A DNA stretch of 64,000 nt, taken from the sequence record PV806337.1, one strand, 5' to 3'. The number at the start of each line of letters is the position of its first letter. The first letter of the stretch is position 1. Positions 32,076-64,000 of the stretch are shown in pieces. Position numbers and translations under genes: made by a program. Source of the stretch: a phage. A model generated the notes under the pieces. The model ran no database searches and was not told the origin of the DNA. It saw only the letters and a program-made list of their open reading frames with translations.

Positions 32076-32091
32076 ACTTTAAGGAAATGTT

Positions 32092-32470: not shown

Positions 32471-32478
32471 CGGGTTCT

Positions 32479-32553: not shown

Positions 32554-32568
32554 AATTTAAAAATTCAT

Positions 32569-32597: not shown

Positions 32598-32627
32598 ATT
32601 TATATAAATTAATGAGAGGGAAACCAA

Positions 32628-33127: not shown

Positions 33128-33128
33128 T

Positions 33129-33205
33129 GCTTCGGTAGCTTAGCGATCTAAAGCACTCGGCTGATAACCGAGAGATCGGGGGTTTAAATCCCTCCCGGAG
33201 TACCA
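33129..33205 (+). tRNA. tRNA-Ile (anticodon GAT)
   Basis: Anticodon stem CTCGG/CCGAG perfect, loop CTGATAA, atypical T-loop TTTAAAT, CCA. Confidence 0.7.
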
Positions 33206-33301
33206 AATTTAGGAATTAAGACTATGCGTCCAGGAAAGTTTAAAAAAGCTAATTGGTCTAAAGAGTATAAAGAATACTTACTTAGTCTAATAAAACATAA
33301 T

Positions 33302-33377
33302 AGTTAGTTGGCAGAGTGGTTATGCACCTCCTTCATACGGAGCGATTACAGTGGTTCAAATCCACTACTAACTACCA
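33302..33377 (+). tRNA. tRNA with CAT anticodon (Met/fMet/Ile2 type)
   Basis: Acceptor AGTTAGT/ACTAACT perfect, anticodon loop TTCATAC, T-arm AGTGG-TTCAAAT-CCACT, CCA. Confidence 0.7.
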
Positions 33378-47739: not shown

Positions 47740-47924
47740 TGGAAACTCTTTTTCTTTTAATGCTCGTAGGTTCTCTGTTACTAATACTAGCACTTCTACT
47801 AATCTGCAATATTCTTAATAATAAGAATCTAGAGCTAAAGTGTGAGAACCAAATCCTTAACCGTGAACTTAAACAATATAATCTAGCAGCCTATAAACTG
47901 TTAGACAAACTGGAGAATAAATAA
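47739..47924 (+). CDS. small membrane protein
   Basis: ORF track 61 aa. Confidence 0.45.
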   Translation: METLFLLMLVGSLLLILALLLICNILNNKNLELKCENQILNRELKQYNLAAYKLLDKLENK

Positions 47925-48526
47925 TGACTTTTAATGCGCAACAATCTATTCAAGTAGTGCCAGATCATGAACTGAACACATGGGATTATAGCTTTAAAGA
48001 TTTAACCGCTACTGTACAATTTAAATCTATGAAGCTAACATTTGCACACACTGACCTTAGAGCATGTAAAGGTCTTGAGGATAAGCTCGAAGATGCTCGC
48101 AAGATTTTTGGTAAGGCTCGCATCCCAGCTGATAATCTAATTAACGCATTAATCGATGCAGGGTACAAACTTGTGAAGACTGAGGTGAACCGCCCTAGTA
48201 CTCCAGTGACTATTAGAGATCCGTGGCAGTCAGGGACAATCGCAATGCTGAATAAATCATCGGATTTGCACAATGTTCCTTGTGGGGGTGTGATAAGTAG
48301 TACGCAGTCATATAAGTTTGGGGAAGATTACGGCCCTTCTGTACAGTTGAAACATACTCAAGAAGCTTTTGAATCTGATATGCGAAGCGTAGCACCTGCG
48401 GATGCTGAAGGTTTTAGAAGTCCCATCTATGTTACTCACTTTAATAATCTTAGGCCTGGGAGTATAAATGATGCTATCCTTGAAGCGTTGGGAGCTGCTA
48501 TTAATGAAGATAAGAGGGGTAATTAA
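47924..48526 (+). CDS. hypothetical protein
   Basis: ORF track 200 aa; internal reverse ORFs judged spurious. Confidence 0.55.
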   Translation: MTFNAQQSIQVVPDHELNTWDYSFKDLTATVQFKSMKLTFAHTDLRACKGLEDKLEDARKIFGKARIPADNLINALIDAGYKLVKTEVNRPSTPVTIRDPWQSGTIAMLNKSSDLHNVPCGGVISSTQSYKFGEDYGPSVQLKHTQEAFESDMRSVAPADAEGFRSPIYVTHFNNLRPGSINDAILEALGAAINEDKRGN

Positions 48527-49251
48527 TGAGTATAAAAAAGAATTTAGCAGAGATTATTAAGTTAGCTAGAGCTTGTAATGGAAAATGTGTTTCTCAGCTT
48601 AATGAACTAGAAGCACATGCAGTAGCATTTTGTGCAGAGTTTTATCCTGCATACCTTAATGCTAGTGGGCAACCTAAATATAATAAGGATGCCGAAGAAG
48701 TTACGTTAGCTCCTTCATATATTAGCTTGCGTCGTTTAATTCAAACCGTTGATCCTACTATTAAAGGATTCTCAGCAGATTCATTCCACGTCTTTGCAGA
48801 TAAAGAACTCCCGTATTTTAAAGAAGGAAATGCAAAGTCATGTTTAGAATGTTATCCTAATATACTGATGATTCCTCAAAAGCAATGTAAATACGATCAT
48901 CTTCCTAGACTTACAAAGAAAGTAGCACCACCTTATTCTTCTCTATCTGAATTAAAGCTAGGAATTGTATCTACACTTGCGCAGATTCATCTAAGTATAG
49001 TTGACGACTCAACAACATCTAACCCTATTCTAGATGCTGCTCACTTTGAAATTTTACGTGATCCTGAACAAGCTAGAAAAGTTGCTAAGTCTGTTAAGTT
49101 TGATATATCAACAATTCTTGACACTAAACAAGAAACTAGACCTAGAGGAAGTGTAGATTATTCTGCGCTAAATTCCGAGTCATCTTACTTAGCAACATTC
49201 CTTTTCATGGCGTCAAAAGGGGTTATTCTAAAGGTTAATAAAGATGGATGA
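48526..49251 (+). CDS. hypothetical protein
   Basis: ORF track 241 aa. Confidence 0.55.
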   Translation: MSIKKNLAEIIKLARACNGKCVSQLNELEAHAVAFCAEFYPAYLNASGQPKYNKDAEEVTLAPSYISLRRLIQTVDPTIKGFSADSFHVFADKELPYFKEGNAKSCLECYPNILMIPQKQCKYDHLPRLTKKVAPPYSSLSELKLGIVSTLAQIHLSIVDDSTTSNPILDAAHFEILRDPEQARKVAKSVKFDISTILDTKQETRPRGSVDYSALNSESSYLATFLFMASKGVILKVNKDG

Positions 49252-49972
49252 TTTACGTGCTGAAATTAATAAAAAGTTACGAGAGGAAGCCCGGAGGTTT
49301 CCTCTTAAAAACTTTTTGAAGTCAAATGGCTCTACTAATATAACGAAGATTAGGCAACTTCACCCTGACTTCCAACAAGAGGCCTTAAACCTTATCTTTA
49401 TTAGGAAAGCTTTAAAAGTCCAGAAAGAAGAGTATGGGTATGAAAGAGTTAATTATAAGACAGCCAATCAGTTAGTAGAGATATGGTGCTATAAACATAA
49501 AGGATACTTTATGCAAACTGCTAGATCTCACCTAGATGGGCACGGTTGTTTACAATGTGCTAGGGAAAGCAACCTAAATACACCTATCGAGAAACCGGAG
49601 GTAGAAGAAGATGTTCAGTCCCCCACATATCTCTATATCTTCTCTAATAAAGATCAGTCTAGGAAGAAATTAAAGACAAAGATTGGGGTTTCTAGAGAGC
49701 CACATCAAAGGTTTAAGAATCTAGAGTATGATAAATTGCGTGTGCCGGGTTTTGAAGATATGGAAGTATTTGGTATCTACCAGTATAAGAAAGGATCGAA
49801 AGAACTCGCTTACAAAATAGAACACCAAGCACATAAATTTTTCGAGAATAAATTTGCTAACCATTATAAATTCGATGGAGCAAAAGAGATATTCAACATT
49901 AAAGCTGTAGAGGCAGAAGAATATCTATTAAGTCAAGGTTGCATAAAAATTTACCCAACTCCAAACTCATGA
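49244..49972 (+). CDS. zinc-ribbon + T5orf172 (GIY-YIG-like) domain protein
   Basis: ORF track 242 aa; GHGCLQC ribbon; YLYIFSN..KIGVS..FDGAKEIF pattern. Confidence 0.6.
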   Translation: MDDLRAEINKKLREEARRFPLKNFLKSNGSTNITKIRQLHPDFQQEALNLIFIRKALKVQKEEYGYERVNYKTANQLVEIWCYKHKGYFMQTARSHLDGHGCLQCARESNLNTPIEKPEVEEDVQSPTYLYIFSNKDQSRKKLKTKIGVSREPHQRFKNLEYDKLRVPGFEDMEVFGIYQYKKGSKELAYKIEHQAHKFFENKFANHYKFDGAKEIFNIKAVEAEEYLLSQGCIKIYPTPNS

Positions 49973-49999
49973 CAAAAATTTAAAAGTAACGAAATCTGC

Positions 50000-50029
50000 T
50001 TGACATTCGTGAGAATAATGTGTTATAAT
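50000..50029 (+). promoter_or_regulatory. consensus sigma70 promoter (TTGACA-18-TATAAT) with no ORF downstream
   Basis: TTGACA 50000-50005, TATAAT 50024-50029; next about 300 nt lack a credible ORF and lead into the repeat field. Confidence 0.6.
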
Positions 50030-50369
50030 AATCTCATAGATTAAAAACATCAACTTGTTTTTACCTCTAGGCCGTAGATTTACATCATTCCTCGTAGGAA
50101 AACACTTGATGACGGTTCTGCTCGCAGGTTCTCGTCAATTGTTCTTCCACACCGAGACTTAGGAGGATGTATCAAATCGCACGCGCCTAGAGGGGCTAAC
50201 TCTCATGAAATGGGGGTATATTTACTTTTAAATAACTAAAAAATATTTAAAGGCAATATCTGTGTTCAAGATGATACACCTGTTGCCGCTCTCCATCTCT
50301 AGGATCACATACACTTTCCTAGAAACTCCAGAGTTCTCACTAAATACTCACGAAATATCACACTTCTAG

Positions 50370-50442
50370 TGGGCGGTTCTCCTAAGTTTCTAGGAACATA
50401 TACTAGGCGGTTAATATAGGGCGGTTAATATAGGGCGGTTAT
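50370..50442. repeat. tandem GGCGGTT-containing direct repeats (TAGGGCGGTTAATA x3 plus variant)
   Basis: Copies at 50405-50417, 50417-50430, 50431-50442, variant 50370-50380. Confidence 0.8.
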
Positions 50443-50485
50443 TTCTAGGAGACATTTTTCCAAAACACATTTCCAGAAATTACTA

Positions 50486-51085
50486 TCGGATTTGCACATT
50501 GTGTTTCTAGAAATTTATGGTCGGATTTGCACAAACGCCTAAGTTTTTAGGAACTCTTACTCCCCTGAAAATGGCAGCATTATTTCGGGCCGAAGGCCCA
50601 TAATTGCCTGAGTTTTTAGAGCCACAGAAATTTTCACTTGTCAAGCTATTTTGCCCCATTTTGCTAATAAAATTTTACTTTATCTCCACTAATCTCAAAT
50701 TAACCCAAATCTTCTCAACTCTTCCCCAAAAACGCAGCAAATCAGGCGTTGCACGCCACCCATGCTGCTCCTCCAGTTTCTCCCCTTATTTTCTCTCGCT
50801 CTCTCATCTTCTCCTCAAACCCATACAATCACACACCCTCTCATCGAAGTCACAAAAATCTTGTCGGATTCGCACATCTTAATCCTAGAAAAACCGTGTC
50901 GGATTTGCACATACCCCACAGGATTCGAACGCAGTTCGTGATTGCTGGAGTTTTTAGGAAAATTCATTGTCGGATTTGCACACTATAAAAATTTTTCGGG
51001 TCGGATTTGCACACTACCAAAAATTGTCGGATTTGCACACACACGCCCACGCGTAATCCATGGGGGCAAATGTCGGTTTTGCACA
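50486..51085. repeat. dispersed 14-bp direct repeat GTCGGATTTGCACA, 8 copies (injection-stop-signal-like region)
   Basis: Copies near 50486, 50520, 50863 (variant), 50898, 50969, 51000, 51026, 51072 (variant), irregular spacing. Confidence 0.8.
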
Positions 51086-51119
51086 AAAGCGCAGGGCAAT
51101 TGCCCTGCTCGCCTGAATG

Positions 51120-51300
51120 CGAATGATAATGAGAATGATTCTCATTTAAAAAGCGGAATGAGAATGATAATAATTCGCATTTAAGAATGGAAGTGAGAAT
51201 TATTCAGGAAGTGAAACGATTCTCATTTAAAAAGCAGAATGATTCTCATTTAGAAAGTGGAACGCAAATAATAGTGATTCGTATTTAAGAACGGAAGTGA
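51120..51300. repeat. palindromic repeat family (GAATGAGAATGATTCTCATTTAAAAAGC-like)
   Basis: Several similar ~25-bp units, each a near-palindrome around GAGAATGATTCTC; further copy at 51623-51643. Confidence 0.7.
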
Positions 51301-51426
51301 GAAACACTATTATTTAAGTTATCCACAGACTTATTAACAGCACGATTTGACTTGACAGAATCCTAGCCATTTTGGGGTGTTATTAACAGACTTATCCACA
51401 GCTTATCCTACTGTATAAATATACAG
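51297..51426. repeat. left arm of ~130-bp imperfect inverted repeat with two DnaA-box motifs
   Basis: TTATCCACA at 51319-51327 and 51392-51400; ends in palindrome CTGTATAAATATACAG; reverse complement matches 55251-55380. Confidence 0.8.
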
Positions 51427-51794
51427 TATTCCTACGCAGTGAATAATTCTAATATAGCGTTAAAACGTCCTAGATCGCATTCTAACGCGTTTAATTTTGG
51501 TGGAGATACTAAAACAAGGGCAAAATTGGAGGAGGCTTGAAAATTAGTTAGCTCGCTAACGATCACACAAGGCGACACGTAACACCCTAATCATTAGCAG
51601 GCTAACCATCGCGGGCGCGGTCAAATGAGAATGATTCTCATTTGAGAATTGGGGGCACTTCCCGATAGTTGCGCCCCGTGATTATTATAGTAGCGGGCAA
51701 CCGTTACGCTTTGCCCACTCCCGCCACTCATCTTGATGCCTAGACTTGCGACGGCGTACTAAAAACCGCTTGTACCAGTGATTAAACCATCGTT

Positions 51795-51998
51795 TCATAA
51801 ACCCTCCTCCGGTAGTCGATGCGTGATCTTCTCCTCCTCCCCGTAGGAATCCACCAAATACTGATAATAACCATCGTGATCATAAATCACTTTATCATAT
51901 TCGCCCCGCTCGACCGCTTGCCGATTCTCCGGCGTATCTGGCACGTAAAAAACATCAACCATTGTACTGATTTTGGTTACAATAATTTTATTGCTCAT
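51795..51998 (-). CDS. hypothetical protein (pre-early block)
   Basis: ORF track 67 aa in GC-richer block between inverted repeats. Confidence 0.45.
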   Translation of the reverse strand: MSNKIIVTKISTMVDVFYVPDTPENRQAVERGEYDKVIYDHDGYYQYLVDSYGEEEKITHRLPEEGL

Positions 51999-52221
51999 AA
52001 TAACGCTCCGTTATTAAAAATTACCATATATTCCCGGCCAAATTTTACTAGTAACATAAGTTACTATTCCTGCCGTAATTATGCTATAAACTACTAATAA
52101 GGTAAACATTAAACCAGACATAATAACTCCTAGTAAATATATTTTTGCCAATGGTGGCGAACGTTGTCGCCACCAGCGGAATCATTAGCTGCCTTAACAT
52201 TACCAACGAAAATATATAATC

Positions 52222-52581
52222 TCATTGCGCCACCTTTCGAAATGCTGTTTCAATACTTTCCGCAGTTGATTGAATATACACGCCTTTCATTATCAAGCGC
52301 TCAGTGCATACCTTACGGAAAATATTAATAAAATCCTCTTCATTTTCCGCGATTAATGCCTCACCCATAACCTGAACGTCACAAGATGCAAAGGTCAAAA
52401 ATTGAAATGCTAGTTCACGGGCAACGACCGCATTAATTTTATAATGCGCCTTTCCCTCATAAATATTAATAACGCCCTTATAAGCTGGGGAAAGCTGGTT
52501 TAAATAGTTTGCTAATAATGCCGGACGGCAATTAGCAACAAAGCGATTGCCTTCATAAATTATCATTTGCATAGCTCCCAA
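52222..52581 (-). CDS. hypothetical protein (pre-early block)
   Basis: ORF track 119 aa. Confidence 0.5.
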   Translation of the reverse strand: MGAMQMIIYEGNRFVANCRPALLANYLNQLSPAYKGVINIYEGKAHYKINAVVARELAFQFLTFASCDVQVMGEALIAENEEDFINIFRKVCTERLIMKGVYIQSTAESIETAFRKVAQ

Positions 52582-52681
52582 ATAGTTCCGCCGATGATCA
52601 TTAGCTGACTAATAATTATCAGAATAAAACCAATTGAAGGCAGGACGCCCCAAAAACGAAAAGCCGTTTTAATTTGCTGAA

Positions 52682-52894
52682 TCATAATACCCCACGAAAA
52701 GCAGCGTAAAAGGTGGCAAAATGTTTAACTGTTTCAGCTATCACGTTGCCGCGCTTATCAAATTTTTTCTCGGTAACACGAAAGGCATTTTTGTTACGTG
52801 CTACATATTCGATTTTACAATCTTCCCGCTCGAACGTGTTAACATCCACCAGCTTAAAGCCTTTCGAACGTGCAAGGGAAACGTTGCGGATCAT
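52682..52894 (-). CDS. hypothetical protein (pre-early block)
   Basis: ORF track 70 aa; overlapping forward ORFs judged spurious. Confidence 0.45.
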   Translation of the reverse strand: MIRNVSLARSKGFKLVDVNTFEREDCKIEYVARNKNAFRVTEKKFDKRGNVIAETVKHFATFYAAFRGVL

Positions 52895-53095
52895 TTTTAT
52901 TCTCCTTTACTAGTCATGCAGCCCAGCAGATAAGAAAACGCAGCAATGCCAGCGCCAATAATAACAGCGTGAACGCCGAAAGCTATCGCAAATAACGATA
53001 AAATAGCGCCCAAGATACCCGCTAAAATAGATCGAAAAATAACCATTTGTGATAGCCTCCTAGTTATCGGGGCGAAAGTAACGCCCCGTTATTAA

Positions 53096-53404
53096 TTACA
53101 TTAAAACAATTTTAGCGGCTTGTTTTTTAGTGCAATGTTCAGCTTTCAGGGTATCCAGTAAAAAGCCAGCCGTTTGCTGATCGATTTTATCGGCGTTATA
53201 TAGTTCCTGAATGGTATTATAAGTTTTAGCAATGCCGAACTCCTGCACCATTTCATAGATGACAGCACGATTAGATACCCAGCCTTGCGCGGTAAACAGA
53301 TGACTAGCAGAAGAATAAGCAACCATTTTAAGCCTCCAAATTTTTGGGAAAATTTTCAATCCACCGTTTTGGTGTAAAAGCATTATAACAAAAAAGGCCA
53401 CCAT
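53096..53404 (-). CDS. hypothetical protein (pre-early block)
   Basis: ORF track 102 aa. Confidence 0.5.
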   Translation of the reverse strand: MVAFFVIMLLHQNGGLKIFPKIWRLKMVAYSSASHLFTAQGWVSNRAVIYEMVQEFGIAKTYNTIQELYNADKIDQQTAGFLLDTLKAEHCTKKQAAKIVLM

Positions 53405-53431
53405 AAAAGGCGACCTTTACAAAACTTTACA

Positions 53432-53926
53432 TTAGACTACTTGCAGGGATTCAATATTGAAACATCGTTTCAATTCGTCATGCAAAACAGCGTATTCATC
53501 CCATCGGGTACTATCAGGAATATAAACAAGCTGTTTTAATCGGTTTGCGTATATTACCGCTTTGTTATCAATTATCTCGACGCCACCATATTTAATAATT
53601 AATTTCATGACGGAATTAATAGGATCGCCGCCGTTTACATATGTGCCGGATTTACTTAGCTGATAATGATAAAGGCTTGCATATACGTTTTCATTTTCAT
53701 ACCATTCGCCAGTTTCTTCGTCTTCATAGCCATCGCTACCAAAACGAGAAGCATTATCAATAGCCATTTCATGAGCGAAAGCGTCCAGATCCGTACCAGC
53801 AGGAACAAAGTATTCTTCGGTGTTCCCTTCTCCGCAATAGCCAGTATGACAATCGACTAAAATGATCATATCATGTTTAGCCGTGCTCACTTCTCCTAGC
53901 GAGAAGCCGTATTTTTCCTCAGCCAT
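53432..53926 (-). CDS. hypothetical acidic protein (pre-early block)
   Basis: ORF track 164 aa. Confidence 0.55.
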   Translation of the reverse strand: MAEEKYGFSLGEVSTAKHDMIILVDCHTGYCGEGNTEEYFVPAGTDLDAFAHEMAIDNASRFGSDGYEDEETGEWYENENVYASLYHYQLSKSGTYVNGGDPINSVMKLIIKYGGVEIIDNKAVIYANRLKQLVYIPDSTRWDEYAVLHDELKRCFNIESLQVV

Positions 53927-53991
53927 TAGTTAGCCTCCTATTAATTAACAAGGGAATAGTAAAGTGGGGAAATAATCCCCACTAAATATTA

Positions 53992-54984
53992 TTACTCGAT
54001 TTCGGTGCTAGTGGTAAAAGTAGAAATATCAATACCTTTCACCATTTCATCAATCATTTCAGCGATGTTAAAACTTTGCACCATTTCCAGCATTGCCGCT
54101 TCCATAGCCGCCCCTGCTACCGCTTTCGCTTTCTGGTTAGTCGGTGCGTACTGGTCAACCGCTACACTTAGCAGGTTAGCAATCACTACTCGACCAATCG
54201 GCGTATCAATATAGCCTTTAATCATGAACGGTGCTTTTTTAGCCGCTACTTTCGTGATTTGAGTCAGTGCAATTTTACCCGCTTCCAGTTTTGCAGCATT
54301 TACAACAGCAGACTTATTGGCGGCAACGATATTAGCGATCTTGGTCATGGTATTTTTTCCTTTGTTTTCAGTAGTTTGAGTGTTAACGCTTTGAGTGTTA
54401 GAATTTACAGCATGTTTTTCGATGTTGTCAATAGGCTGATCTTCCTCCTTCCAGAAAGTAAAACCAGCCTCCTCTATTAAATCATTATATACATACGGGT
54501 ATAATTCCGACGGTAGCAAAAAATTACCGTTATCATCAAAAGCCATTATAGCCGCAAAACGATACCCGTGATAATCTGATCGATTCCACCCAATTGATAA
54601 ATAACGCCAAAATGAATCGAGAAAATTTTCTACGTCATAAAGATCCTTATCATAAGGCTCATAATTTTCTATCGTGAAAACTTCTAAGCCCATCCCCGCA
54701 TCATAGGCTTTTACTGTACTGCCTTTCACTATAATAAAATCAGTATCTGGCCCTCGACTAGTAAGCAAGTGAGATTCCTGATTATATAAAACAAGCGTTG
54801 CCCCTTGATTATATAACGGTAGAAAACTATTCATATTATAAGCATCGTAATCATCAAGAAAATTACGATGAATAGTTTCAATATTGAAAACAAAATGTTT
54901 AATGCTGGTTGTTCTGCTACCGTCCAGCAGGTTACGCAGCGCGCCTTTTAAGACGGTTGCGTTATCTGGTTTATACAGCCTCAT
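53992..54984 (-). CDS. hypothetical protein (pre-early block)
   Basis: ORF track 330 aa. Confidence 0.55.
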   Translation of the reverse strand: MRLYKPDNATVLKGALRNLLDGSRTTSIKHFVFNIETIHRNFLDDYDAYNMNSFLPLYNQGATLVLYNQESHLLTSRGPDTDFIIVKGSTVKAYDAGMGLEVFTIENYEPYDKDLYDVENFLDSFWRYLSIGWNRSDYHGYRFAAIMAFDDNGNFLLPSELYPYVYNDLIEEAGFTFWKEEDQPIDNIEKHAVNSNTQSVNTQTTENKGKNTMTKIANIVAANKSAVVNAAKLEAGKIALTQITKVAAKKAPFMIKGYIDTPIGRVVIANLLSVAVDQYAPTNQKAKAVAGAAMEAAMLEMVQSFNIAEMIDEMVKGIDISTFTTSTEIE

Positions 54985-55250
54985 TTGTTGGCCTCCCTCG
55001 TTAATCGGTGAGTGAATGATAAAGGTAATTTTCTAGCATGGGCAAATATTATTTTACCTTTTTATTTTCCTTGCCTAACGCCTAGTTTTATGCTAACCGC
55101 GCAGCGGTGCAATAAAGAGCAAAACACGGCGAAGCCACCAGGGCGACGCGTTGCGGCTTTACTTTAACATTACCCTACAGCATTTTGCTCGTTAGAAAGC
55201 GATTTAGGCCGCTTAAAATTGATTGCAGTTGTTAACACTACCTTTTTACC

Positions 55251-55380
55251 CTGTATATTTATACAGTAGGATAACCTGTGGATAAGTCTGTGTAAAAGTC
55301 CTTATATCGCCGCCTATCGTGTCAAGTCAAAAAGTGCTGTGGATAACTTTGTGTATAACTTAAATGATAGTGGTTCTCAC
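55251..55380. repeat. right arm of ~130-bp imperfect inverted repeat with two DnaA-box motifs
   Basis: TGTGGATAA at 55277-55285 and 55338-55346; starts with CTGTATATTTATACAG; inner ~40 bp nearly identical to left arm, outer part diverged. Confidence 0.8.
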
Positions 55381-55900
55381 TTAGCTAGATGATTTCTTAT
55401 AGTTATTATTTCTCATTAATTTATATGTATATTATATATCATGAAATAGTTAGTTGGCTAATGAGATTTTTCCGTGATTAATAGTCTGCTAATAATTCAG
55501 GTCGTTACAATCCACCAGCATGATTATCATTCTAGCAATTATTAGTCTGCTATCTTTCCGATGCATACTAACAAATAAAAGTCAATTAATTTATTTCATA
55601 AAATAAGTAGTTATCCACTGGAAAATAAAAGTCAAGTGGATAACTAGGAAAATTTCATTTTTGCTTTTGGGGATAAGTTATCAACAAGGCTAGAATGCGC
55701 CTAAAACGCTCCAGAACGCAATAAAGTTTTTAGCCATCCCATCATAAGGGGATAAGCCGTTTATCGTTACCACGAGCTTTTTAGATTTTGTCAAGTAGGG
55801 CAAAGCAAATATAAATGAAAAAATTACTTGCCTATTTGCTTTATTTTGTGGTATTCGCGCGCCCGTTTCTTTTAATTTTAGGCCGTCGCCGCACGGTGTC
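55380..55900. promoter_or_regulatory. AT-rich non-coding control region with further DnaA-box-like motifs upstream of pre-early genes
   Basis: TTATCCACT (~55610) and GTGGATAAC (~55637) in inverted orientation; repeated AATAAAAGTCAA; no ORF. Confidence 0.45.
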
Positions 55901-56090
55901 CGGTGAGTTTTACCTTTACATTTCTTTACAAAAATAAGGTTGCGCCATTTTCGGGAATCCCCTATTATTTATCTCGTAGGGCGGCAATGACGAACTACAC
56001 GGCGGGAAGTTTACCGCCACGCTCTTTAAAAATTGGGTATATCTTAAAGCCTATCGGCGGTAAACTTATTCATTATAAGGAATCGACGAT

Positions 56091-56294
56091 ATGAAACAAA
56101 CGCTTTTGATCACTGGCAAGCCTAGCAAGGCACTAGATAGCAAAACAAAAAACTTGTTGACAGTAGCGCAAAATTCTGTAAAATGGCGATTCAAGCAATA
56201 TTTGCAAGGTCGCCAGCAAGGTTTAGAAATGATCTGGCGAAACATTATGATTGACCTGAAGGAAAATCATAAAAAATCTCAAAAAATTGTTTGA
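56091..56294 (+). CDS. hypothetical small protein
   Basis: ORF track 67 aa. Confidence 0.4.
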   Translation: MKQTLLITGKPSKALDSKTKNLLTVAQNSVKWRFKQYLQGRQQGLEMIWRNIMIDLKENHKKSQKIV

Positions 56295-56520
56295 CAGCCT
56301 AGCCGATAGGTTTTAAGATGTACCCAGTTCGAAAAGAGCGATAACTTGATAAAATTTGACGGTCGGTGCTTACCATAATGCATCCCGCCCCCTAACGGGA
56401 TATAGCGGCCTACGTGGAGTTCTTTAAATTGATTAAACTGGCGAGCGGATTGTTACTTATTACCTGCTACTTTCTAGCAGGTAATGCGGAACAATCCCCA
56501 AATAACTAGGAGTTTATATT

Positions 56521-56772
56521 ATGCAAAACGTTATTACCGCGCCTAAAATTGGTCAATCCGTTTTTATTCCTTTCGTTACTAAAACGGACGAATTAACCGG
56601 AAAAGCCGAACGTATTAAAGGTGCGGCGCTTATGCCGTTCGATACAATCGACGCGGTATACACTGAAAATGAACGCAGTAACAACGGCAAGCCCGTTTTT
56701 AGCGTTCGCGTTAAATCCGGCGATGTTGTAAAGGTTGTTCAACGCAACGAAAAATGGGAAGCTGTTTTATAA
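56521..56772 (+). CDS. hypothetical protein
   Basis: ORF track 83 aa with AGGAG RBS. Confidence 0.5.
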   Translation: MQNVITAPKIGQSVFIPFVTKTDELTGKAERIKGAALMPFDTIDAVYTENERSNNGKPVFSVRVKSGDVVKVVQRNEKWEAVL

Positions 56773-56870
56773 TTTAGTGCTAACTTTATATCCCTCTTAT
56801 TTCAGGGGGATATAACGATTAACATTAAGTTAATCTAATCCCTTAAATTAAACTAATAGGAGTTTTTACC

Positions 56871-57278
56871 ATGACTAACGCAAAAACCGCAAAATTCGCA
56901 TGGAATGAAGAAAACACTCAGAAAGCTGTTACCATGTACCAGCAGTTAATCAACGAAAACGGTTTAGATTTTGCAAATAGCGACGGCCTGAAAGAGATTG
57001 CAAAAGCAGTAGGCGCGGCCTCCCCCGTATCCGTTCGCTCAAAATTGACCAGTGCAAAAGCCTATCAAAAAAGCGATAAGCCGCGTAAAGTTGGCGGCGG
57101 TAGCTCTGTGCGTAAAGCTCACTATGTGCGCGTTATCGCTAAACATGCTATTGATTCCGGCATTATCAAAGACGCCGATGATTTGGCAAGCCTTGAAAGT
57201 GCAAAACTTGAAACGCTGGACGCAGTAGCGCAATTGTTAGGCGTTGCCGATGAAGTAAAACAGGCCGCAGGCGAATAA
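56871..57278 (+). CDS. hypothetical protein
   Basis: ORF track 135 aa with AGGAG RBS; terminator hairpin 57291-57311. Confidence 0.55.
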   Translation: MTNAKTAKFAWNEENTQKAVTMYQQLINENGLDFANSDGLKEIAKAVGAASPVSVRSKLTSAKAYQKSDKPRKVGGGSSVRKAHYVRVIAKHAIDSGIIKDADDLASLESAKLETLDAVAQLLGVADEVKQAAGE

Positions 57279-57290
57279 TAGTTATATCTT

Positions 57291-57315
57291 GCCCCCTTTT
57301 AGTGAGGGGGCAATA
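57291..57315 (+). terminator. rho-independent terminator-like hairpin
   Basis: GCCCCCTTTTAGTGAGGGGGC palindrome after 56871-57278 gene. Confidence 0.5.
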
Positions 57316-57368
57316 ATATAACTGTTTAGCGATAGTTATTTTCTTCCCTTAAATCAGGAGTTTTAAAA

Positions 57369-57566
57369 ATGGTTTTCTTCCCTACTGAATCTTTAATTCT
57401 AGGCTTATTTATTATGGCGGCCTCTCTATTATTCGCTTATTTTCAAAATGATTTAGATTCATATTATTTTAAACGCAAATCTAAATTGGCAAAGCGTTTG
57501 GGCTTACTTTGTTTTATCGCTGCCGTTGCTTGTGGTGTTAGTTCTAGCCTAGTGCCTTTAAATTAA
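57369..57566 (+). CDS. small membrane protein
   Basis: ORF track 65 aa. Confidence 0.45.
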   Translation: MVFFPTESLILGLFIMAASLLFAYFQNDLDSYYFKRKSKLAKRLGLLCFIAAVACGVSSSLVPLN

Positions 57567-57656
57567 TGTTGCAAATTATAACGCCTATTGTTCGAGGCGT
57601 TATATTTGGCAATATTGCCGTTATTAACCTAATCCCTTTAATGGAGTTTTATTACT

Positions 57657-59327
57657 ATGATTATTTCCGCAGAAAAACAAACCGTTATCCTGAAAATGGC
57701 CGCTGACTTTAATTTCTATGGTAAACGTCTGCGCGCTACTAAGCTGGAAGTCTGCGACGATATATCAAAAGCGGTTTACGATACTACAAAACACTCCACC
57801 GCCATTTGTGATTGGTTGGAAGCAAATAAACCAGCGAAACCAAAAGCGGCAAAAGTAGCAAAAGCCATTAAAAATGATGAGCGCCCAGAAGCGGCTGGGA
57901 TTGTTTCTAGTACGGTGGAGCAATGGGAAGTAAAACAAGGTAAACGCTTTATTATTACATCGATTCAGAATAATACTTTCCCACATAAAAACTTTTTAGC
58001 CTCACTGGAGCAATTTGCTAAATATATCGGTGCTGATTTGCTTGTTTCTAAGTATATTTATAATAAAAACGGTTTTCAAAATGGGGAAGGTGCGGATGGA
58101 ATCAAATATGATTCCGCGTTCGATAAATATATTTGCAGCAAAAACGTGTTTTTAAATAACCGCCGCTTTGCTTTTATGGCTGAAATTAATGTTTTGCCAA
58201 CCGCAGATTATCCGCTTTCTGGATTCGCTGAAACTGCAACGGCGCTTAATCTTGAAGGTCTGGCAATTGGTCACGCCAAAATTACCGCCGAAAGCGTGCC
58301 AGCTTTAAAAGGTGAAGTAGTGCGCCGCATGTATTCAACCGGAACGGCAACGCTCAAAAACTACATTCAGCAGAAAGCAGGGCAAAAAGCCGAAGCGCTG
58401 CATAATTTCGGTGCGCTTATTGTTGAGTTCGACGAGGACGGGGAATTTTTTGTTCGCCAGCTTGAAACAATGGACGAAAGCGGGGTGTTTTATGATCTGA
58501 ACGTTTGCGCTACTCCTGCCGGATGCTATGAGACATCGGGGCATGTTTTAGGCTTGCAGTATGGCGATATTCACGCCGAAAAATTAGATGAGGAGTGCGC
58601 CGCCGCATCTTGGGGGCATGGTGATACTTATGGGCTAGTAGATATTCTTAAACCAAAATATCAGTTTGTGCATGACGTTCATGATTTTACATCCCGCAAT
58701 CATCATAACCGCGCATCCGGTGTATTCCTAGCGAAACAATATGCCGCCGGACGTGATAAAGTTCTGGATGATCTTATCGATACGGGGCGCGTACTGGAAT
58801 CAATGGAGCGCGATTTTAGTCAAACAATCATTGTTGAATCGAATCACGATTTGGCGCTATCCCGTTGGCTTGATGATCGTAATGCTAACATCAAAGACGA
58901 TCCAGCAAACGCCGAGTTATATCACCGCCTGAATGCTGCAATTTACGCGGCAATCGGTGAACACGACGAAACGTTTAACGTGCTAGATTATGCGTTGCGC
59001 AAGGTTGCAGGTTGTGAATTTAACGCCATTTTCCTGACCACTGATCAATCTTTCAAGATTGCAGGCATTGAATGCGGCGTACACGGTCACAATGGCATTA
59101 ACGGCAGTCGTGGCAATCCTAAACAATTTAAAAAATTGGGCAAGTTAAACACGGGGCATACCCATACCGCCAGCATTTATGGCGGCGTATATACCGCTGG
59201 CGTAGCTGGTAGTCTGGATATGGGCTACAACGTTGGCGCGTCAAGTTGGACGCAGACGCATTTAATTACCTATGCAAACGGTCAACGCACTTTGATCGAC
59301 TTTAAAAACGGTAAATTCTTTGCGTAA
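57657..59327 (+). CDS. A1: pre-early A1-like protein (metallophosphoesterase-type)
   Basis: ORF track 556 aa (matches recalled size of T5 A1); GDIHAEK and GHNGINGSRGN phosphoesterase-like motifs; next to A2- and dmp-like genes. Confidence 0.6.
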   Translation: MIISAEKQTVILKMAADFNFYGKRLRATKLEVCDDISKAVYDTTKHSTAICDWLEANKPAKPKAAKVAKAIKNDERPEAAGIVSSTVEQWEVKQGKRFIITSIQNNTFPHKNFLASLEQFAKYIGADLLVSKYIYNKNGFQNGEGADGIKYDSAFDKYICSKNVFLNNRRFAFMAEINVLPTADYPLSGFAETATALNLEGLAIGHAKITAESVPALKGEVVRRMYSTGTATLKNYIQQKAGQKAEALHNFGALIVEFDEDGEFFVRQLETMDESGVFYDLNVCATPAGCYETSGHVLGLQYGDIHAEKLDEECAAASWGHGDTYGLVDILKPKYQFVHDVHDFTSRNHHNRASGVFLAKQYAAGRDKVLDDLIDTGRVLESMERDFSQTIIVESNHDLALSRWLDDRNANIKDDPANAELYHRLNAAIYAAIGEHDETFNVLDYALRKVAGCEFNAIFLTTDQSFKIAGIECGVHGHNGINGSRGNPKQFKKLGKLNTGHTHTASIYGGVYTAGVAGSLDMGYNVGASSWTQTHLITYANGQRTLIDFKNGKFFA

Positions 59328-59383
59328 TTAAATTATTTCCCTAGCGGCTTGAAATATAGCCGCTATTACAGGAGTCACAAAAA

Positions 59384-59641
59384 ATGAAAGTTACATTACC
59401 CAAAACATTGGACGAAAAAGTATTCATTTCACCGGATGAAATGGAATCTGATAAAGTTTACAGCTTCGGGCCTATCCTAGCCGCTAAAACTAATACTGAT
59501 GGTATTATTTCCGTCGATTCCCGTGATAATGATGTTGTTCCTTTTGATGACGATGGCGCTTTTTATGAGTGGCTAAGCGATAATAATTTACCCGTAAACG
59601 GTGAATTAACGCCGTACCAGATGCAGATTATTATCAAATAA
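59384..59641 (+). CDS. hypothetical acidic protein
   Basis: ORF track 85 aa. Confidence 0.5.
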   Translation: MKVTLPKTLDEKVFISPDEMESDKVYSFGPILAAKTNTDGIISVDSRDNDVVPFDDDGAFYEWLSDNNLPVNGELTPYQMQIIIK

Positions 59642-59679
59642 ATTAAATCCATTATTAAACTAATTGGGGTTTTATAAAT

Positions 59680-60072
59680 ATGAAAAAGCAAAATATTCCA
59701 TTCGATCGCGCTCAATCTTCCATTGTTCTGGTTTATTCTAATGGCGAACGTTACCACGTCGAGGCGGGGCACGTTATTGATGAACTACTAGACTTTAATG
59801 ACGCTTTGCAGGTTACTACCTTTGCCTATACGCAAGGCCGCGCAAGTAGTTACATTAAGGCCGCAGGCGTTTATGTTGACACGGTGAAACAAGAAACGAT
59901 TATCATCGACGCCGTAAAATCCGGCCTAGCCTTTGCAGTTGTCGCGCCTTGCCCCGCTTGCCTTGATGATCAATTGATCAGCGCAAAAGTATATACTTGT
60001 GCGGGGATTCGTTCCAGCGTATCCGGTGAAGATGTTAGTTTTATTGCCGATGCGTTGGCTTATGGTCTTTAA
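59680..60072 (+). CDS. A2: pre-early A2-like protein
   Basis: ORF track 130 aa; position between A1-like and dmp-like genes; assignment by synteny and size only. Confidence 0.45.
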   Translation: MKKQNIPFDRAQSSIVLVYSNGERYHVEAGHVIDELLDFNDALQVTTFAYTQGRASSYIKAAGVYVDTVKQETIIIDAVKSGLAFAVVAPCPACLDDQLISAKVYTCAGIRSSVSGEDVSFIADALAYGL

Positions 60073-60151
60073 TAGTTAATTTATTATTACCCGCTTATAA
60101 ATAGCGGGTAATGCTGAATAAACTAAATCCCTTTAACGGAGAATGTAACAA

Positions 60152-60886
60152 ATGAGTAAAGCTATTATGAATATTTCCCGCAGCTTCCCGCATATTTCCC
60201 GCGTCATGATTTGGGATCTGGACGGCACTATCATTAATTCTTTCCATCGTGTAGCACCCTGCTTTGATAGCGAGGGCAATTTAGATTTAAATAAGTATAA
60301 AAATGAAGCCTGCAAACATGATTTAATAATGCAAGATACTTTATTGCCCCTTGTTACATATATGCGCCAGTGCATGAATGACGCAAATACATTAAACATT
60401 ATTTGCACCGCTCGACTGATGAGCAAGTCGGATTATTATTTCTTGCGTAAACAAGGCTTGCGCGGTCGTGATAAAAGCAATATCCGCGTTTTTTCCCGCG
60501 ACACACTGCATAAATATTTTGAAGCTGATAAAGTTAGCGAAATTTACCATAGTAAAGACGCTATATATAAAAGCCATTATTTTGAGCTATTTAAACAGTT
60601 ATATCCGAACGCTGATTTTACGATGATTGACGATCATAAAGGTGTGCTATCGGCGGCGGCATCATACGGATTTAAAACGCTGGACGCGCAAGCTATTAAC
60701 GATATTCTATCGATTGGGGTTACATTGATAGGTGAAACCTTTATTGATGAATCTCTTGAGGATGATAATGATTATCAGTTCCTAGCCGACCGCCTGCAAT
60801 TATGTTGGGAAGGTATGACCGAAGAAGAACGCGCAGAATATAGTTGCAGCCCGCAACAATATATTGAGAAATTAAAAGTTGCGTAA
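60152..60886 (+). CDS. dmp: 5'-deoxyribonucleotidase (HAD-like)
   Basis: ORF track 244 aa; N-terminal MIWDLDGTIINS HAD motif; size and synteny as recalled for T5 dmp. Confidence 0.6.
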   Translation: MSKAIMNISRSFPHISRVMIWDLDGTIINSFHRVAPCFDSEGNLDLNKYKNEACKHDLIMQDTLLPLVTYMRQCMNDANTLNIICTARLMSKSDYYFLRKQGLRGRDKSNIRVFSRDTLHKYFEADKVSEIYHSKDAIYKSHYFELFKQLYPNADFTMIDDHKGVLSAAASYGFKTLDAQAINDILSIGVTLIGETFIDESLEDDNDYQFLADRLQLCWEGMTEEERAEYSCSPQQYIEKLKVA

Positions 60887-60902
60887 TAATTAAAGTTGAA
60901 AT

Positions 60903-60937
60903 AGTCACGGTGTGTAATGATAACATGCCGTGACTAT
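60903..60937. terminator. hairpin between convergent dmp-like and reverse small genes
   Basis: TAGTCACGG...CCGTGACTA inverted repeat. Confidence 0.5.
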
Positions 60938-61037
60938 TAGCCTGCTAAGTACCGGGCGGTAATGAGACTCATTCTCATCTGGAGGACCACTGGACACACC
61001 TCCATGTGTAATCTTATGAAATTTGGCAAAAGTCAAA

Positions 61038-61283
61038 TTAGCGCATAGAAGGGTCATCAAACCTGTGTTCTGGTCTGAACTCACGGAATCTCTTTCGCGA
61101 CGCCCGAGATCCATCCGACCACTCCCGCTCAAACTCCGCACGTTTCTCATCAAACTTCCGCTCCCTTTCCGCAATCTCCCGCGATACTTCCGCAGTATAC
61201 TTACGATGCTTGTTAATAGCCGCAGTCATTCCGAAAACTCCCGCGAGTACCCCGATAATAAAAGCAATTACAATACTAAACAT
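61038..61283 (-). CDS. small membrane protein
   Basis: ORF track 81 aa; N-terminal TM then charged tail. Confidence 0.45.
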   Translation of the reverse strand: MFSIVIAFIIGVLAGVFGMTAAINKHRKYTAEVSREIAERERKFDEKRAEFEREWSDGSRASRKRFREFRPEHRFDDPSMR

Positions 61284-61470
61284 CTAATTCCCTCTCAATT
61301 TGCAGAATACGGGTACTATCACAACGTTGGAGTTCTACTAATTTTTCTATGGCAAATTGTTGCTGCTTTACCTGGGCCTCTAGAGTTTTTAGGCGAACAT
61401 ACGCGGTGTAAGAAATAATGAAAACTGCCCAGACTAGTATTACTATTAGTGTAGCTACCACTTCCATCAT
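61276..61470 (-). CDS. small membrane protein
   Basis: ORF track 64 aa; N-terminal TM. Confidence 0.45.
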   Translation of the reverse strand: MMEVVATLIVILVWAVFIISYTAYVRLKTLEAQVKQQQFAIEKLVELQRCDSTRILQIERELDV

Positions 61471-61880
61471 TTACGTTTCTCCAATAATAAGGTTTCAATT
61501 CTAGCTAAGTGATTATCTAAAATACATTGCCCAGTAATAACAACCCCTAGTAGTGCAATAATTATCCATTCCATTAAATCCACCCCGCCATAGCTGCTAA
61601 CCAAAAACCTACGAAAATAAAGAATAGGATAGTTCCGAATCCAAAGCTATTAATCCAGCTATCGTACACTTCTCCACGTCTGCTCTTTCTTTTGTTTGAC
61701 ATATCTTTCATGCTCCTATAAATATGGTATTTTAAAATATTTTATAATTTGTGTAATAACCAACCATGCTTGTGACTTCCTAGAAGGACTTCTACTTTTC
61801 TTACATAGTGGTTTCTGCCAATATACCATCCAAAAAATAAAAAATTTAGTTTACTTGGATGTCTTTTTGCTTTATACTAA

Positions 61881-62147
61881 TTACAGGTAGTTAGATTGCT
61901 CTAGTTTAAATTTACAATCACCATATTTAAGGTCAAACTGACTGAGATCCCACCACCCAAACTTAGTACGGAGCTGTACTACTGGGAAGCGATCTCCCTT
62001 AATACGAACTTTTTGAATCTTGAGGCCGTAATGTTCTTCTCCCGCACCGCCAAAAGATTTTACAAATCCAGTACAAAATGGTTTGGGAGCAGGTGCACAA
62101 CCAGATAACATAACTGCGGCAACTAGTGCAATCACAAACTTTTTCAT
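61881..62147 (-). CDS. llp: lytic-conversion-type lipoprotein (Llp-like)
   Basis: ORF track 88 aa; lipobox MLSGC; GGAGAG RBS; divergent from adjacent receptor-binding gene. Confidence 0.6.
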   Translation of the reverse strand: MKKFVIALVAAVMLSGCAPAPKPFCTGFVKSFGGAGEEHYGLKIQKVRIKGDRFPVVQLRTKFGWWDLSQFDLKYGDCKFKLEQSNYL

Positions 62148-62232
62148 ATTTATCTCTCCATTTCTAATTTATGAATCTATTATAGCAAAATAGAGGGATG
62201 AAAGCAAATACATTTTTATAATAGGAGATTAT

Positions 62233-63990
62233 ATGGGTTTTTTCGCTGGAAAATATAGCGATGGTAAGACCGTACTATCCTTAAATACTGAATCTGGTGG
62301 TGACATTAATCGTCACTATAGTCCAAATAATAATAGTATTTTTCATAGTGATATGCCATTTGTTCTAGTTGATGGTACTTATGAGGTAGGATTAGGTGAT
62401 GCCGGGAATGGGTTTTTCGTATGTCAGATGCCTCCTGATATAGTAAATATTAAATCTAATGATCCTGGTAGAGTTATACTAACTGCTATTGAAATTAACG
62501 GCACTCACAGAGCTTTTCTTAATGGTACTCAGAGTAAGGTTGGTCAAACTATAGTTGCCACTCAAGCAGATCCCTTTAGATCTTTTGCTAGTGTTTCTCA
62601 AACCAGTGGATTTGCCTTTGGTAATAGTCTAGCATCCGGCACTTATAATTATAATCCCTCTCTAGGGCACGAAGAATCTATCTCTAGGAGTGGTACAGGG
62701 GGTACTACGTTACATAGTACCTACCATGGGATAGTTAGGCCCGGTGCGGGAGCTCCTGTAGGTATTACTGTTGCAGAAGCTTTTGCACAATTAGGTTTTC
62801 CTACTAATAGTAGCACAGTACCTATAGATGGCAATAACCCGTACTATTGGGATCCTGGATGGATATCACCTCTAGGAGCAGCGCATAGAGGGCATGATTG
62901 GTTTTATGTCTGCAATTCTAATATACGTGGATATGGTGGGGTTAGGCAAGGGCTCCCAGGTAATGTAAATACTATGTACCACGACGGTGGGAACAGATTT
63001 GTTTGTAGGGGATCTACTACTAATCTGGCCAACCAGTCTGGCAATCCTACGGTAATACAGGACTGGTATAATATAACTCCTACTAAGGTTATTTGGTATG
63101 TTCTTAATTTAAGGTACTCTAATGGTGGAATGAGTATTTCAGGCAACCCCTTTACTGGTTCTGATATTCTTATATCGCCTTCTAACTTCATAATTAAAGG
63201 GGTGAGTCTCCCTAATACCGGATATAAATTTATAAATCAGAATGCTTTTGGTAACCTAGGTTACCGTCCTGATATGGAGTATATAGGAAATAACGCAGCG
63301 TATACCGGGGTTTTTGGTGATACCACGGCAAGATGTGAACTTGTAGGGTCTAGTAATGGAGGGTTGTGGTCTCCTGTAGATTATGGAGGAGCTAAATCTC
63401 AAATTAGTATTTATAGATTCGGAGTAGGTAAACAGTGGTATGTAAACTCTAACGATAATACTATTGGTAATGAGCATGGAGTTGTTTGGGGACCCTCAGC
63501 AGTTCCACTGCGACTTTTTGGTGGAAATGTAGGTAGTTCTTATATGGGAGATGATATTACTCCCAGCTACCCAGGAACGGGTGATAGATACGTTGGTTTA
63601 TCAACTATTGGGCTAGGTATACCAGGCGGAAATGCTACAGTAATTCTTACTACTGAAGTTATATCAGGTAATCTTAATTGTGCGGGTGTTCCAGCTAATA
63701 CATGGAATAATGGTGTGTTTCAAGTGCAAGGAAGAAGAGCATATAGCTATAGCGGCGGGGATGCAATATTCCACCAGATTTTAACGCTACCTGTGGGCTA
63801 TCTAGTACCTTTTCATACTACATCTGCTTTTAGATATACACCTAACAATGCTCTAAGTAGAAACAGTTTTATATACACTGTTAAAAATTTAGGAAATGGA
63901 AATGTAGAGTTAGGAGTAGTTATGCACGTGAGTTTGGGTAGTGCAGTTTTCCTACCTAGATTAAGAGTAACAGTTCAACGCCTTACCTAA
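62233..63990 (+). CDS. oad: receptor-binding tail protein (pb5/Oad-like)
   Basis: ORF track 585 aa; AGGAG RBS; Gly/Asn/Ser/Thr-rich; N-terminus MGFFAGK..IFHSDM, internal KVIWYV.NL and FIIKGV, C-terminal QRLT resemble T5 pb5 as recalled. Confidence 0.65.
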   Translation: MGFFAGKYSDGKTVLSLNTESGGDINRHYSPNNNSIFHSDMPFVLVDGTYEVGLGDAGNGFFVCQMPPDIVNIKSNDPGRVILTAIEINGTHRAFLNGTQSKVGQTIVATQADPFRSFASVSQTSGFAFGNSLASGTYNYNPSLGHEESISRSGTGGTTLHSTYHGIVRPGAGAPVGITVAEAFAQLGFPTNSSTVPIDGNNPYYWDPGWISPLGAAHRGHDWFYVCNSNIRGYGGVRQGLPGNVNTMYHDGGNRFVCRGSTTNLANQSGNPTVIQDWYNITPTKVIWYVLNLRYSNGGMSISGNPFTGSDILISPSNFIIKGVSLPNTGYKFINQNAFGNLGYRPDMEYIGNNAAYTGVFGDTTARCELVGSSNGGLWSPVDYGGAKSQISIYRFGVGKQWYVNSNDNTIGNEHGVVWGPSAVPLRLFGGNVGSSYMGDDITPSYPGTGDRYVGLSTIGLGIPGGNATVILTTEVISGNLNCAGVPANTWNNGVFQVQGRRAYSYSGGDAIFHQILTLPVGYLVPFHTTSAFRYTPNNALSRNSFIYTVKNLGNGNVELGVVMHVSLGSAVFLPRLRVTVQRLT

Positions 63991-64000
63991 AGGAGGAAAT

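What the first reader, a model, noticed from the sequence alone, without database searches (positions are those of the whole stretch)
49973..62232. Pre-early block lies between early genes and the receptor-binding gene, implying a collapsed or permuted terminal repeat
The order is early genes, repeat field, pre-early genes (A1-like, A2-like, dmp-like), then directly the divergent llp/pb5-like pair that belongs to the late tail region. In a linear T5-type genome the pre-early genes sit in ~10-kb direct terminal repeats at both ends, so early and late genes can only flank one copy if the repeat was collapsed in assembly or the record is circularly permuted. The true physical termini are therefore probably inside this window, most plausibly near 61.5-61.9 kb.
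Basis: inference. Interest (0 to 1): 0.5.

Follow-up and report, generated by a model that had tools for sequence, protein, structure and literature searches.

The report
Single-copy T5 terminal repeat in record
This is an ordinary T5-like phage genome whose roughly 10.4-kb terminal repeat appears once because the assembly was closed into a circle and reopened at the small-terminase gene, a routine record convention and not new biology.

Summary
The window is a Tequintavirus (T5-like) genome in reverse orientation relative to T5. Positions 1-50618 match the T5 early region. Positions 50619-60996 match the whole T5 terminal repeat (iss repeat field, A2, A1, dmp). Positions 60997-64000 match the unique DNA just inside T5's right repeat (four small membrane ORFs, llp, pb5). 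One repeat copy therefore carries a left-repeat junction on one side and a right-repeat junction on the other.

The guessed terminus at 61.5-61.9 kb does not hold. Five records with both repeats (T5 twice, MM-1, Elw, HASG4) share the same end sequences, and both are present in the window. They place the left terminus at 60995/60996 and the right terminus at 50619, giving a repeat of about 10,378 bp.

The window ends exactly one base before the terS start codon, as does the published record DaisyDussoix, which was assembled as a circle and opened at terS. About 82% of deposited T5-like records carry a single A1 copy. This is already known and of low interest. Read depth and read-start mapping would confirm the termini.

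The parts
47924..49972 (+). Last early-region ORFs before the repeat: 47924-48526 lies in the stretch matching T5 gene T5.019; 48526-49251 is phrog_8993; 49244-49972 carries a T5orf172 / GIY-YIG-like domain
   Evidence: The 49244-49972 product is 99.6% identical to DaisyDussoix bas31_0168.
49973..50618 (.). Unique non-coding DNA just inside the left-repeat junction. It holds the part of the repeat field that spills out of the terminal repeat: two GTCGGATTTGCACA copies and GGCGGTTAATATAG twice
   Evidence: Davison 2020 states that Repeat Region 3 overruns the left repeat by about 270 bp.
50619..60996 (-). The T5-type long direct terminal repeat (first-step-transfer DNA), one copy, about 10,378 bp. 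It reads in T5 orientation on the minus strand
   Evidence: No second copy in the 64-kb window.
50619..50646 (-). Conserved right-terminus sequence, in T5 orientation ...GCTTGACAAGTGAAAATTTCTGTGGCTC|. Its last base is window 50619
   Evidence: Matches the last bases of T5 AY543070 and Elw exactly, and AY587007, MM-1 and HASG4 with 1-2 differences.
50404..51660 (.). Repeat field, equal to the injection-stop-signal region (Repeat Region 3 of Davison)
   Evidence: The T5 iss feature at 9140-10149 lies within the T5 blocks aligned to this stretch.
51295..51426 (+). 132-nt inverted-repeat copy with four DnaA-type boxes (IRD'-spacer-IRC' equivalent)
55251..55382 (-). Partner 132-nt inverted-repeat copy with four consensus DnaA boxes (IRC-spacer-IRD equivalent)
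53992..54984 (-). Homologue of T5 gene T5.011 (DUF7566), 76.5% identical
56871..57278 (+). A2 (DNA-binding pre-early protein)
57657..59327 (+). A1 (DNA transfer / host shut-off pre-early protein)
60152..60886 (+). dmp (deoxynucleoside-5'-monophosphatase)
60985..61010 (-). Left-terminus junction, in T5 orientation ...CATGGAGGTG|TGTCCAGTGG.... The first repeat base is 60996 by T5 and HASG4, or 60995 by MM-1 and Elw
61038..61711 (-). Four small membrane-protein ORFs occupying the position of T5 genes T5.159-162. In T5 and MM-1 this is unique DNA, not repeat
   Evidence: Identity was measured for two of them (T5.162 and T5.161, about 88%).
61881..62147 (-). llp / Cor-type receptor-blocking lipoprotein (lipobox LSGC)
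62233..63990 (+). pb5-type receptor-binding tail protein, 585 aa
63991..64000 (+). Ten-base spacer AGGAGGAAAT ending one base before where terS begins in relatives. This is the likely end of a terS-anchored record
   Evidence: DaisyDussoix has the same layout.

Best explanation
The block is the long direct terminal repeat of a T5-like phage (Tequintavirus), present once because the sequence is a circularised assembly later reopened at the first base of the small-terminase gene.

In virions this ~10.4-kb segment (window 50619-60996) should sit at both ends of a linear molecule. The physical left end is at 60996/60995, reading leftward through dmp, A1 and A2. The physical right end is at 50619.

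Short-read assemblers fuse the two identical copies. The single remaining copy is then flanked by early genes (its left-repeat neighbour) and by the llp/pb5/terminase cluster (its right-repeat neighbour). Replicative concatemers have the same topology.

Functionally the segment is the first-step-transfer DNA. It enters the cell first and expresses the pre-early genes dmp, A1 and A2. It carries the injection-stop repeat field with eight DnaA-type boxes near its inner end.

Shown here: gene identities, both junctions, conservation of both terminal sequences, and the terS-anchored end of the window. Inferred: that the virion DNA of this particular phage is cut at these same two positions and carries the repeat twice.
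For: Both junctions are on one copy. Window 1-50618 aligns to T5 61298 down to 10220. Window 50619-60996 aligns to T5 10219 down to 1, and equally to T5 121750 down to 111532. Window 60997 onward aligns to T5 111531 downward.

The terminal sequences are conserved. T5 AY543070, T5 AY587007, MM-1, Elw and HASG4 all begin (T)G(TC/CT)CA(C/G)TG and end TTGACAAGTGAAAATT(TC/CT)TGTGG(C/A)TC. The window contains both motifs at the aligned positions.

There is no second copy in the 64 kb.

The last base of the window is the base before the terS ATG of MM-1 and DaisyDussoix. DaisyDussoix (113,532 bp) starts at that ATG, ends 10 nt after the pb5 stop, and shows the identical order: early ORFs, repeat field, A2, A1, dmp, small ORFs, llp, pb5.

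Its authors state that circular contigs arose from fused end repeats and were linearised at terS. [quoted passage not shown] The PhageTerm paper states that assemblers place the first base of terminal-repeat phages arbitrarily (PMC5557969).

The A1 gene hits 427 phage records at 503 places, so only about 76 records hold two copies.

The repeat field matches the published iss anatomy: two 132-nt inverted copies with four DnaA-type boxes each, in pairs 3 nt apart; about eight DRD repeats straddling the repeat boundary; and two 68-nt DRE copies (Davison 2020).
Against: No reads are available, so neither the 2x depth nor the physical ends of this phage are observed directly.

The source record is not in the phage collection (best relative 97% identical). 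Its length and any second copy outside the window therefore cannot be checked.

Two records annotate different repeat ends. The ends of chee24 map to window 60902 and 50826. Kenya-K16 starts about 20 nt inside the left end, and its right end does not align at 50619; it looks like the DnaA-box region, but I did not map it. Annotated boundaries in this family are therefore not uniform. Whether that reflects method or biology is unknown.

The first ~100 nt of the repeat are divergent from T5 and MM-1 in the window, although they closely match Elw.
Confidence: 0.9

Rival explanations
1. The repeat is collapsed as proposed, but this phage's physical termini lie elsewhere than the T5 consensus. One option is the reader's 61.5-61.9 kb, which would put the small membrane-ORF cluster inside the repeat. 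Another is positions further inward, as annotated for chee24 or Kenya-K16.
For: Annotated repeat ends are not uniform across records. chee24 has a 9,968-bp repeat whose ends map to window 60902 and 50826. Kenya-K16 has a 9,371-bp repeat. The ~100 nt next to the left terminus vary between phages.
Against: Five records (T5 twice, MM-1, Elw, HASG4) agree on both ends to within 1 nt, and both terminal motifs are present in the window. Elw shares the window's variant of the left-end sequence and starts at the position matching window 60995. Window 60997-61739 is homologous to DNA that is single-copy and outside the repeat in T5, and the same holds for MM-1 up to about 61576.
Confidence: 0.07
2. The sequence is a genuine biological junction rather than an assembler artefact. 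It would come from a replicative concatemer or a circular intracellular form, in which unit genomes are joined through one repeat copy.
For: Concatemer junctions would have exactly this sequence. Sequence alone cannot separate the two cases. Concatemer formation for T5 is assumed in the literature (PhageTerm introduction).
Against: The window stops one base before the terS ATG. That is a curator's choice of record start, as documented for virion-derived BASEL assemblies. Virion DNA is the usual sequencing template.
Confidence: 0.03
3. The phage has no long terminal repeat at all. It would be packaged by a headful mechanism or be circularly permuted, so one copy would be the true state.
For: None beyond the single copy seen in the window.
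Against: Both T5 terminal motifs, the full set of pre-early genes and the iss field are conserved at 86-94% nucleotide identity to phages with repeats at both record ends.
Confidence: 0.01

Closest known systems
Bacteriophage T5 terminal repeat / first-step-transfer region (AY543070 1-10219 = 111532-121750; AY587007)
   Same: Same genes in the same order and orientation (dmp, T5.002, A1, T5.005, A2, T5.007, T5.008, T5.011). Same iss repeat field. The major nick-site sequence is conserved. Both terminal sequences and both flanking junctions are the same.
   Different: The window has one copy, not two. It lacks the hegG HNH endonuclease insertion of T5. It has an extra 164-aa ORF at 53432-53926. 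The T5.003 homologue is divergent (18.5% identity). The first ~100 nt of the repeat differ. The adjacent llp and pb5 are a different receptor allele (24% and 31% identity).
Escherichia phage DaisyDussoix (BASEL collection), MZ501058, 113,532 bp
   Same: Identical record architecture: single repeat copy; early ORFs, repeat field, A2, A1, dmp, small ORFs, llp, pb5; record ends 10 nt after the pb5 stop and starts at the terS ATG. About 93% nucleotide identity over the block. pb5 is 95.9% identical, llp 98.9%, and the ORF at 49244-49972 is 99.6%.
   Different: It is a different isolate. It has an extra 105-aa ORF (bas31_0176) between the homologues of the window's 53432-53926 and 53992-54984 ORFs. 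The early region is about 95% identical.
Escherichia phage vB_EcoS_MM-1, PV577657, 118,039 bp, with both repeats annotated (10,407 bp)
   Same: About 93% identical across the whole repeat. The same terminal sequences give the window boundaries 50619 and 60995. The unique flanks match on both sides.
   Different: The record keeps both repeat copies and starts at the physical left end. The segment next to the early region (window 48.5-50.2 kb) differs.

Membership tests
T5-type long direct terminal repeat (Tequintavirus first-step-transfer region) | Carries the pre-early genes dmp, A1 and A2 in the conserved order, all reading toward the left terminus | tested here: met
   PHROG hits. 94-98% protein identity to T5. 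Collinear alignment.
T5-type long direct terminal repeat (Tequintavirus first-step-transfer region) | Injection-stop repeat field at the inner end: two ~131-bp inverted copies with paired DnaA boxes, DRD and DRE repeats, overrunning the repeat boundary | tested here: met
   Eight DnaA-type boxes in 51295-51426 and 55251-55382. DRD repeats: 8 copies at 50485-51085. Two 68-nt DRE copies. Published description.
T5-type long direct terminal repeat (Tequintavirus first-step-transfer region) | Conserved sequences at both repeat boundaries, matching the record ends of two-repeat relatives | tested here: met
   Five records agree and the window holds both motifs.
T5-type long direct terminal repeat (Tequintavirus first-step-transfer region) | Inner flank of the left copy is early region; inner flank of the right copy is the small-ORF / llp / pb5 / terminase cluster | tested here: met
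   Both flanks are present, but on the same single copy.
T5-type long direct terminal repeat (Tequintavirus first-step-transfer region) | Physically present at both ends of virion DNA (2x read depth, fixed read starts) | not testable with these tools
   No reads or virion data are available. The source record is not in the searched collection.
Collapsed-repeat, terS-anchored phage genome record | Record boundary placed at the first base of the small-terminase gene | tested here: met
   Window base 64000 aligns to the base before the terS ATG of MM-1 and DaisyDussoix. The convention is documented.
Collapsed-repeat, terS-anchored phage genome record | Only one copy of the repeat in the whole record | tested here: inconclusive
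   No second copy within the 64-kb window. The rest of the record is not available.

The most novel reading that the evidence does not exclude
This isolate's terminase might cut at positions different from the T5 consensus. For example, the repeat might extend to 61.5-61.9 kb and duplicate the small membrane-ORF cluster next to llp. That would make repeat boundaries a variable trait within Tequintavirus rather than a fixed one.
Probability: 0.05. Interest if true: 0.25.

Novelty: already known. Interest (0 to 1): 0.07.

Why it matters
The value is practical only. Anyone using this record should know three things. The true virion genome is about 10.4 kb longer than the deposited sequence. The pre-early genes are present in two copies per virion. 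And the physical ends, which matter for engineering, restriction-site counts and injection studies, lie at about 50619 and 60996, not at the record ends. No open question is touched. The arrangement is the commonest state of deposited T5-like genomes and is explicitly described in the literature.

Tried and rejected
I looked for the source record so I could check its length and any second repeat copy. A 20.6-kb query of the early region found nothing above 97% identity over its length (NG_A1), so that test could not be run.

Pfam gave no hits for A1, A2, dmp or pb5. Identification therefore rests on PHROGs and direct identity to T5.

I used chee24 and Kenya-K16 as extra termini references. Their annotated ends do not match the five-record consensus, so I treat them as a source of uncertainty rather than as support.

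I considered a terminus at 61.5-61.9 kb. That stretch holds conserved unique-region ORFs and the llp-downstream spacer, and none of the two-repeat relatives examined has a terminus there.

I looked by eye for a shared motif between the two cut sites and saw none. I did not pursue this.
Full report
**What the window is.** The 12.3-kb stretch matches 555 phage records, mostly Escherichia and Salmonella T5-like phages (Demerecviridae, Tequintavirus). In 143 of them a single match covers at least 80% of the query, and the top-ranked matches are about 90-94% identical.

PHROG profiles identify the following:
- A1 at 57657-59327
- A2 at 56871-57278
- dmp at 60152-60886
- a Cor/llp-type lipoprotein at 61881-62147, minus strand
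- the pb5-type receptor-binding protein at 62233-63990

Identity to the T5 proteins is 96.8% for A1, 98.5% for A2 and 94.3% for dmp. Pfam has no models that hit A1, A2, dmp or pb5.

Local BLAST against T5 AY543070 shows that window 1-50618 is the reverse complement of T5 61298-10220. That is the early region, and it includes 21 tRNA genes.

Two details need adjusting. The + strand order is A2, A1, dmp. And about 1 kb lies between dmp and llp, holding four small membrane-protein ORFs on the minus strand (61038-61711). They occupy the position of T5.159-162, and two of them match T5.162 and T5.161 at about 88% identity.

**The two junctions.** In T5 the terminal repeat is 1-10219 at the left and 111532-121750 at the right.

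The alignment of the T5 right repeat to the window stops at window 50619, because the T5 record ends there. The alignment of the T5 left repeat runs on through that point into unique DNA, down to window 50404.

At the other side, the T5 and MM-1 left ends correspond to window 60996 and 60995. The right-repeat alignments run on through that point into the small-ORF/llp cluster.

So a single repeat copy (50619-60996, about 10,378 bp) has a left-repeat-type junction on one flank and a right-repeat-type junction on the other. A full-length linear T5-type genome cannot contain this. A circularised assembly, a permuted record or a concatemer junction can. No second copy exists in the 64-kb window.

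**Where the physical ends are.** I compared the first and last bases of records that carry both repeats:
- T5 AY543070 and T5 AY587007, two independent sequences of T5
- MM-1
- Elw
- HASG4

All five begin (T)G(TC/CT)CA(C/G)TG... and end ...TTGACAAGTGAAAATT(TC/CT)TGTGG(C/A)TC. The window contains both motifs at the aligned positions. The right-end 28-mer is identical to T5 AY543070. The left-end sequence is closest to Elw, whose first ~100 nt closely match the window.

By homology, then, the left terminus is at 60995/60996, about 110 bp beyond the dmp stop codon. The right terminus is at 50619.

That stretch is single-copy DNA outside the repeat in T5 and MM-1.

One caution. chee24 and Kenya-K16 annotate shorter repeats with different ends, so deposited boundaries in this family are not uniform. 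Only reads can settle this phage's ends.

**Why there is one copy.** The last base of the window aligns to the base immediately before the terS start codon in MM-1 and DaisyDussoix. The final 40 nt are identical in all three.

DaisyDussoix (MZ501058, 113,532 bp) starts at that ATG and ends 10 nt after the pb5 stop. It has the identical order: early ORFs, repeat field, A2, A1, dmp, small ORFs, llp, pb5.

Its authors make three relevant statements (PMC8594841):
- Circular contigs arose from fusion of the repeated genome ends.
- Sequences were linearised at the first base of the small-terminase gene.

The PhageTerm paper likewise notes that assemblers place the first base of terminal-repeat phages arbitrarily, and that the repeat should show twice the average depth (PMC5557969).

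The window is therefore most simply the last 64 kb of a record made the same way. The source record itself is not in the phage collection; the best relative is 97% identical.

**How common it is.** The A1 gene hits 427 records at 503 places, so only about 76 records hold two copies. In an evenly spaced sample of 60 records, 42 have one copy. In most of those, A1 sits well inside the record rather than near an end. The arrangement is the norm for deposited T5-like genomes.

**The repeat field.** It corresponds to the T5 injection-stop-signal region: the T5 iss feature lies at 9140-10149, inside the T5 blocks that align to this stretch. It matches Davison's description of Repeat Region 3 (bioRxiv 10.1101/866236) in these respects:
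- A 132-nt inverted repeat at 51295-51426 and 55251-55382.
- Four DnaA-type boxes in each copy, arranged as pairs 3 nt apart, eight in all.
- Two 68-nt direct repeats.
- Eight copies of GTCGGATTTGCACA between 50485 and 51085. These straddle the repeat boundary, as the paper reports for T5.
- The T5 major nick-site sequence, conserved at about 51089.

**How it works.** This part rests on established T5 biology, not on tests done here. The left repeat enters first and injection pauses at the iss. The pre-early genes dmp, A1 and A2 are then expressed, and A1 and A2 permit entry of the remaining DNA. Replication yields concatemers, and terminase regenerates fixed ends and a second repeat copy.

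**Verdict.** The collapsed or permuted-repeat inference is correct. The terminus location is wrong, and I have replaced it with two mapped boundaries. This is a known, routine property of T5-like genome records, so interest is low.

Noticed in passing
window 63961-64000: The window ends exactly one base before the terS start codon of relatives. The last 40 nt are identical to MM-1 and to the end of the DaisyDussoix record. This implies the window is the 3' end of a record linearised at terS.
   Followed up: yes
window 55493-55581: The T5 HNH endonuclease gene hegG (T5 5411-5929) is absent. About 600 bp of T5 is replaced by about 90 bp here. This agrees with Davison's remark that most T5-like phages lack this insertion.
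   Followed up: partly
window 53432-53926 (-): A 164-aa ORF (phrog_6741, no Pfam hit) lies inside the repeat and has no T5 counterpart. ORFs of the same length occupy the matching position in MM-1 and DaisyDussoix.
   Followed up: partly
window 48530-50200: A 1.7-kb segment next to the repeat boundary does not align to T5 or MM-1. It encodes a phrog_8993 protein and a 242-aa protein with a T5orf172 (GIY-YIG-like) domain. The latter is 99.6% identical to DaisyDussoix bas31_0168. It may be a mobile endonuclease cassette.
   Followed up: partly
window 61881-63990: The llp and pb5 alleles are only 24% and 31% identical to T5's FhuA-specific pair. They are 96-99% identical to those of MM-1 and DaisyDussoix. 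The receptor is therefore probably not the one T5 uses, but which receptor was not tested.
   Followed up: partly
window 60900-60996: The first ~100 nt of the repeat, including the hairpin downstream of dmp, come in two sequence variants. The window shares one with Elw and Kenya-K16. T5, MM-1 and HASG4 share the other. The stem sequences differ but both variants still form a hairpin.
   Followed up: partly
window 59384-59641 (+): The ORF in the position of T5.003 is only 18.5% identical to the T5 protein, although its neighbours are 90-97% identical. It looks like a replaced or fast-evolving pre-early gene.
   Followed up: no
window 51041-51136: A 96-nt stretch is 99% identical to T5 9701-9796. 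That T5 stretch contains the annotated major single-strand interruption (GCGC nick site, T5 9748/9749, about window 51089) and an 18-nt perfect palindrome, GCAGGGCAATTGCCCTGC.
   Followed up: partly
loci L008/L009 (chee24) and L014/L015 (Kenya-K16): The annotated terminal-repeat ends in these records differ from the five-record consensus: about 100-200 bp for both ends of chee24 and about 20 nt at the left end of Kenya-K16, whose right end was not mapped. Some deposited boundaries may be coverage-based approximations, or real variation may exist.
   Followed up: partly
window 21497-33377: A cluster of 21 tRNA genes on the + strand, matching the T5 tRNA region.
   Followed up: no
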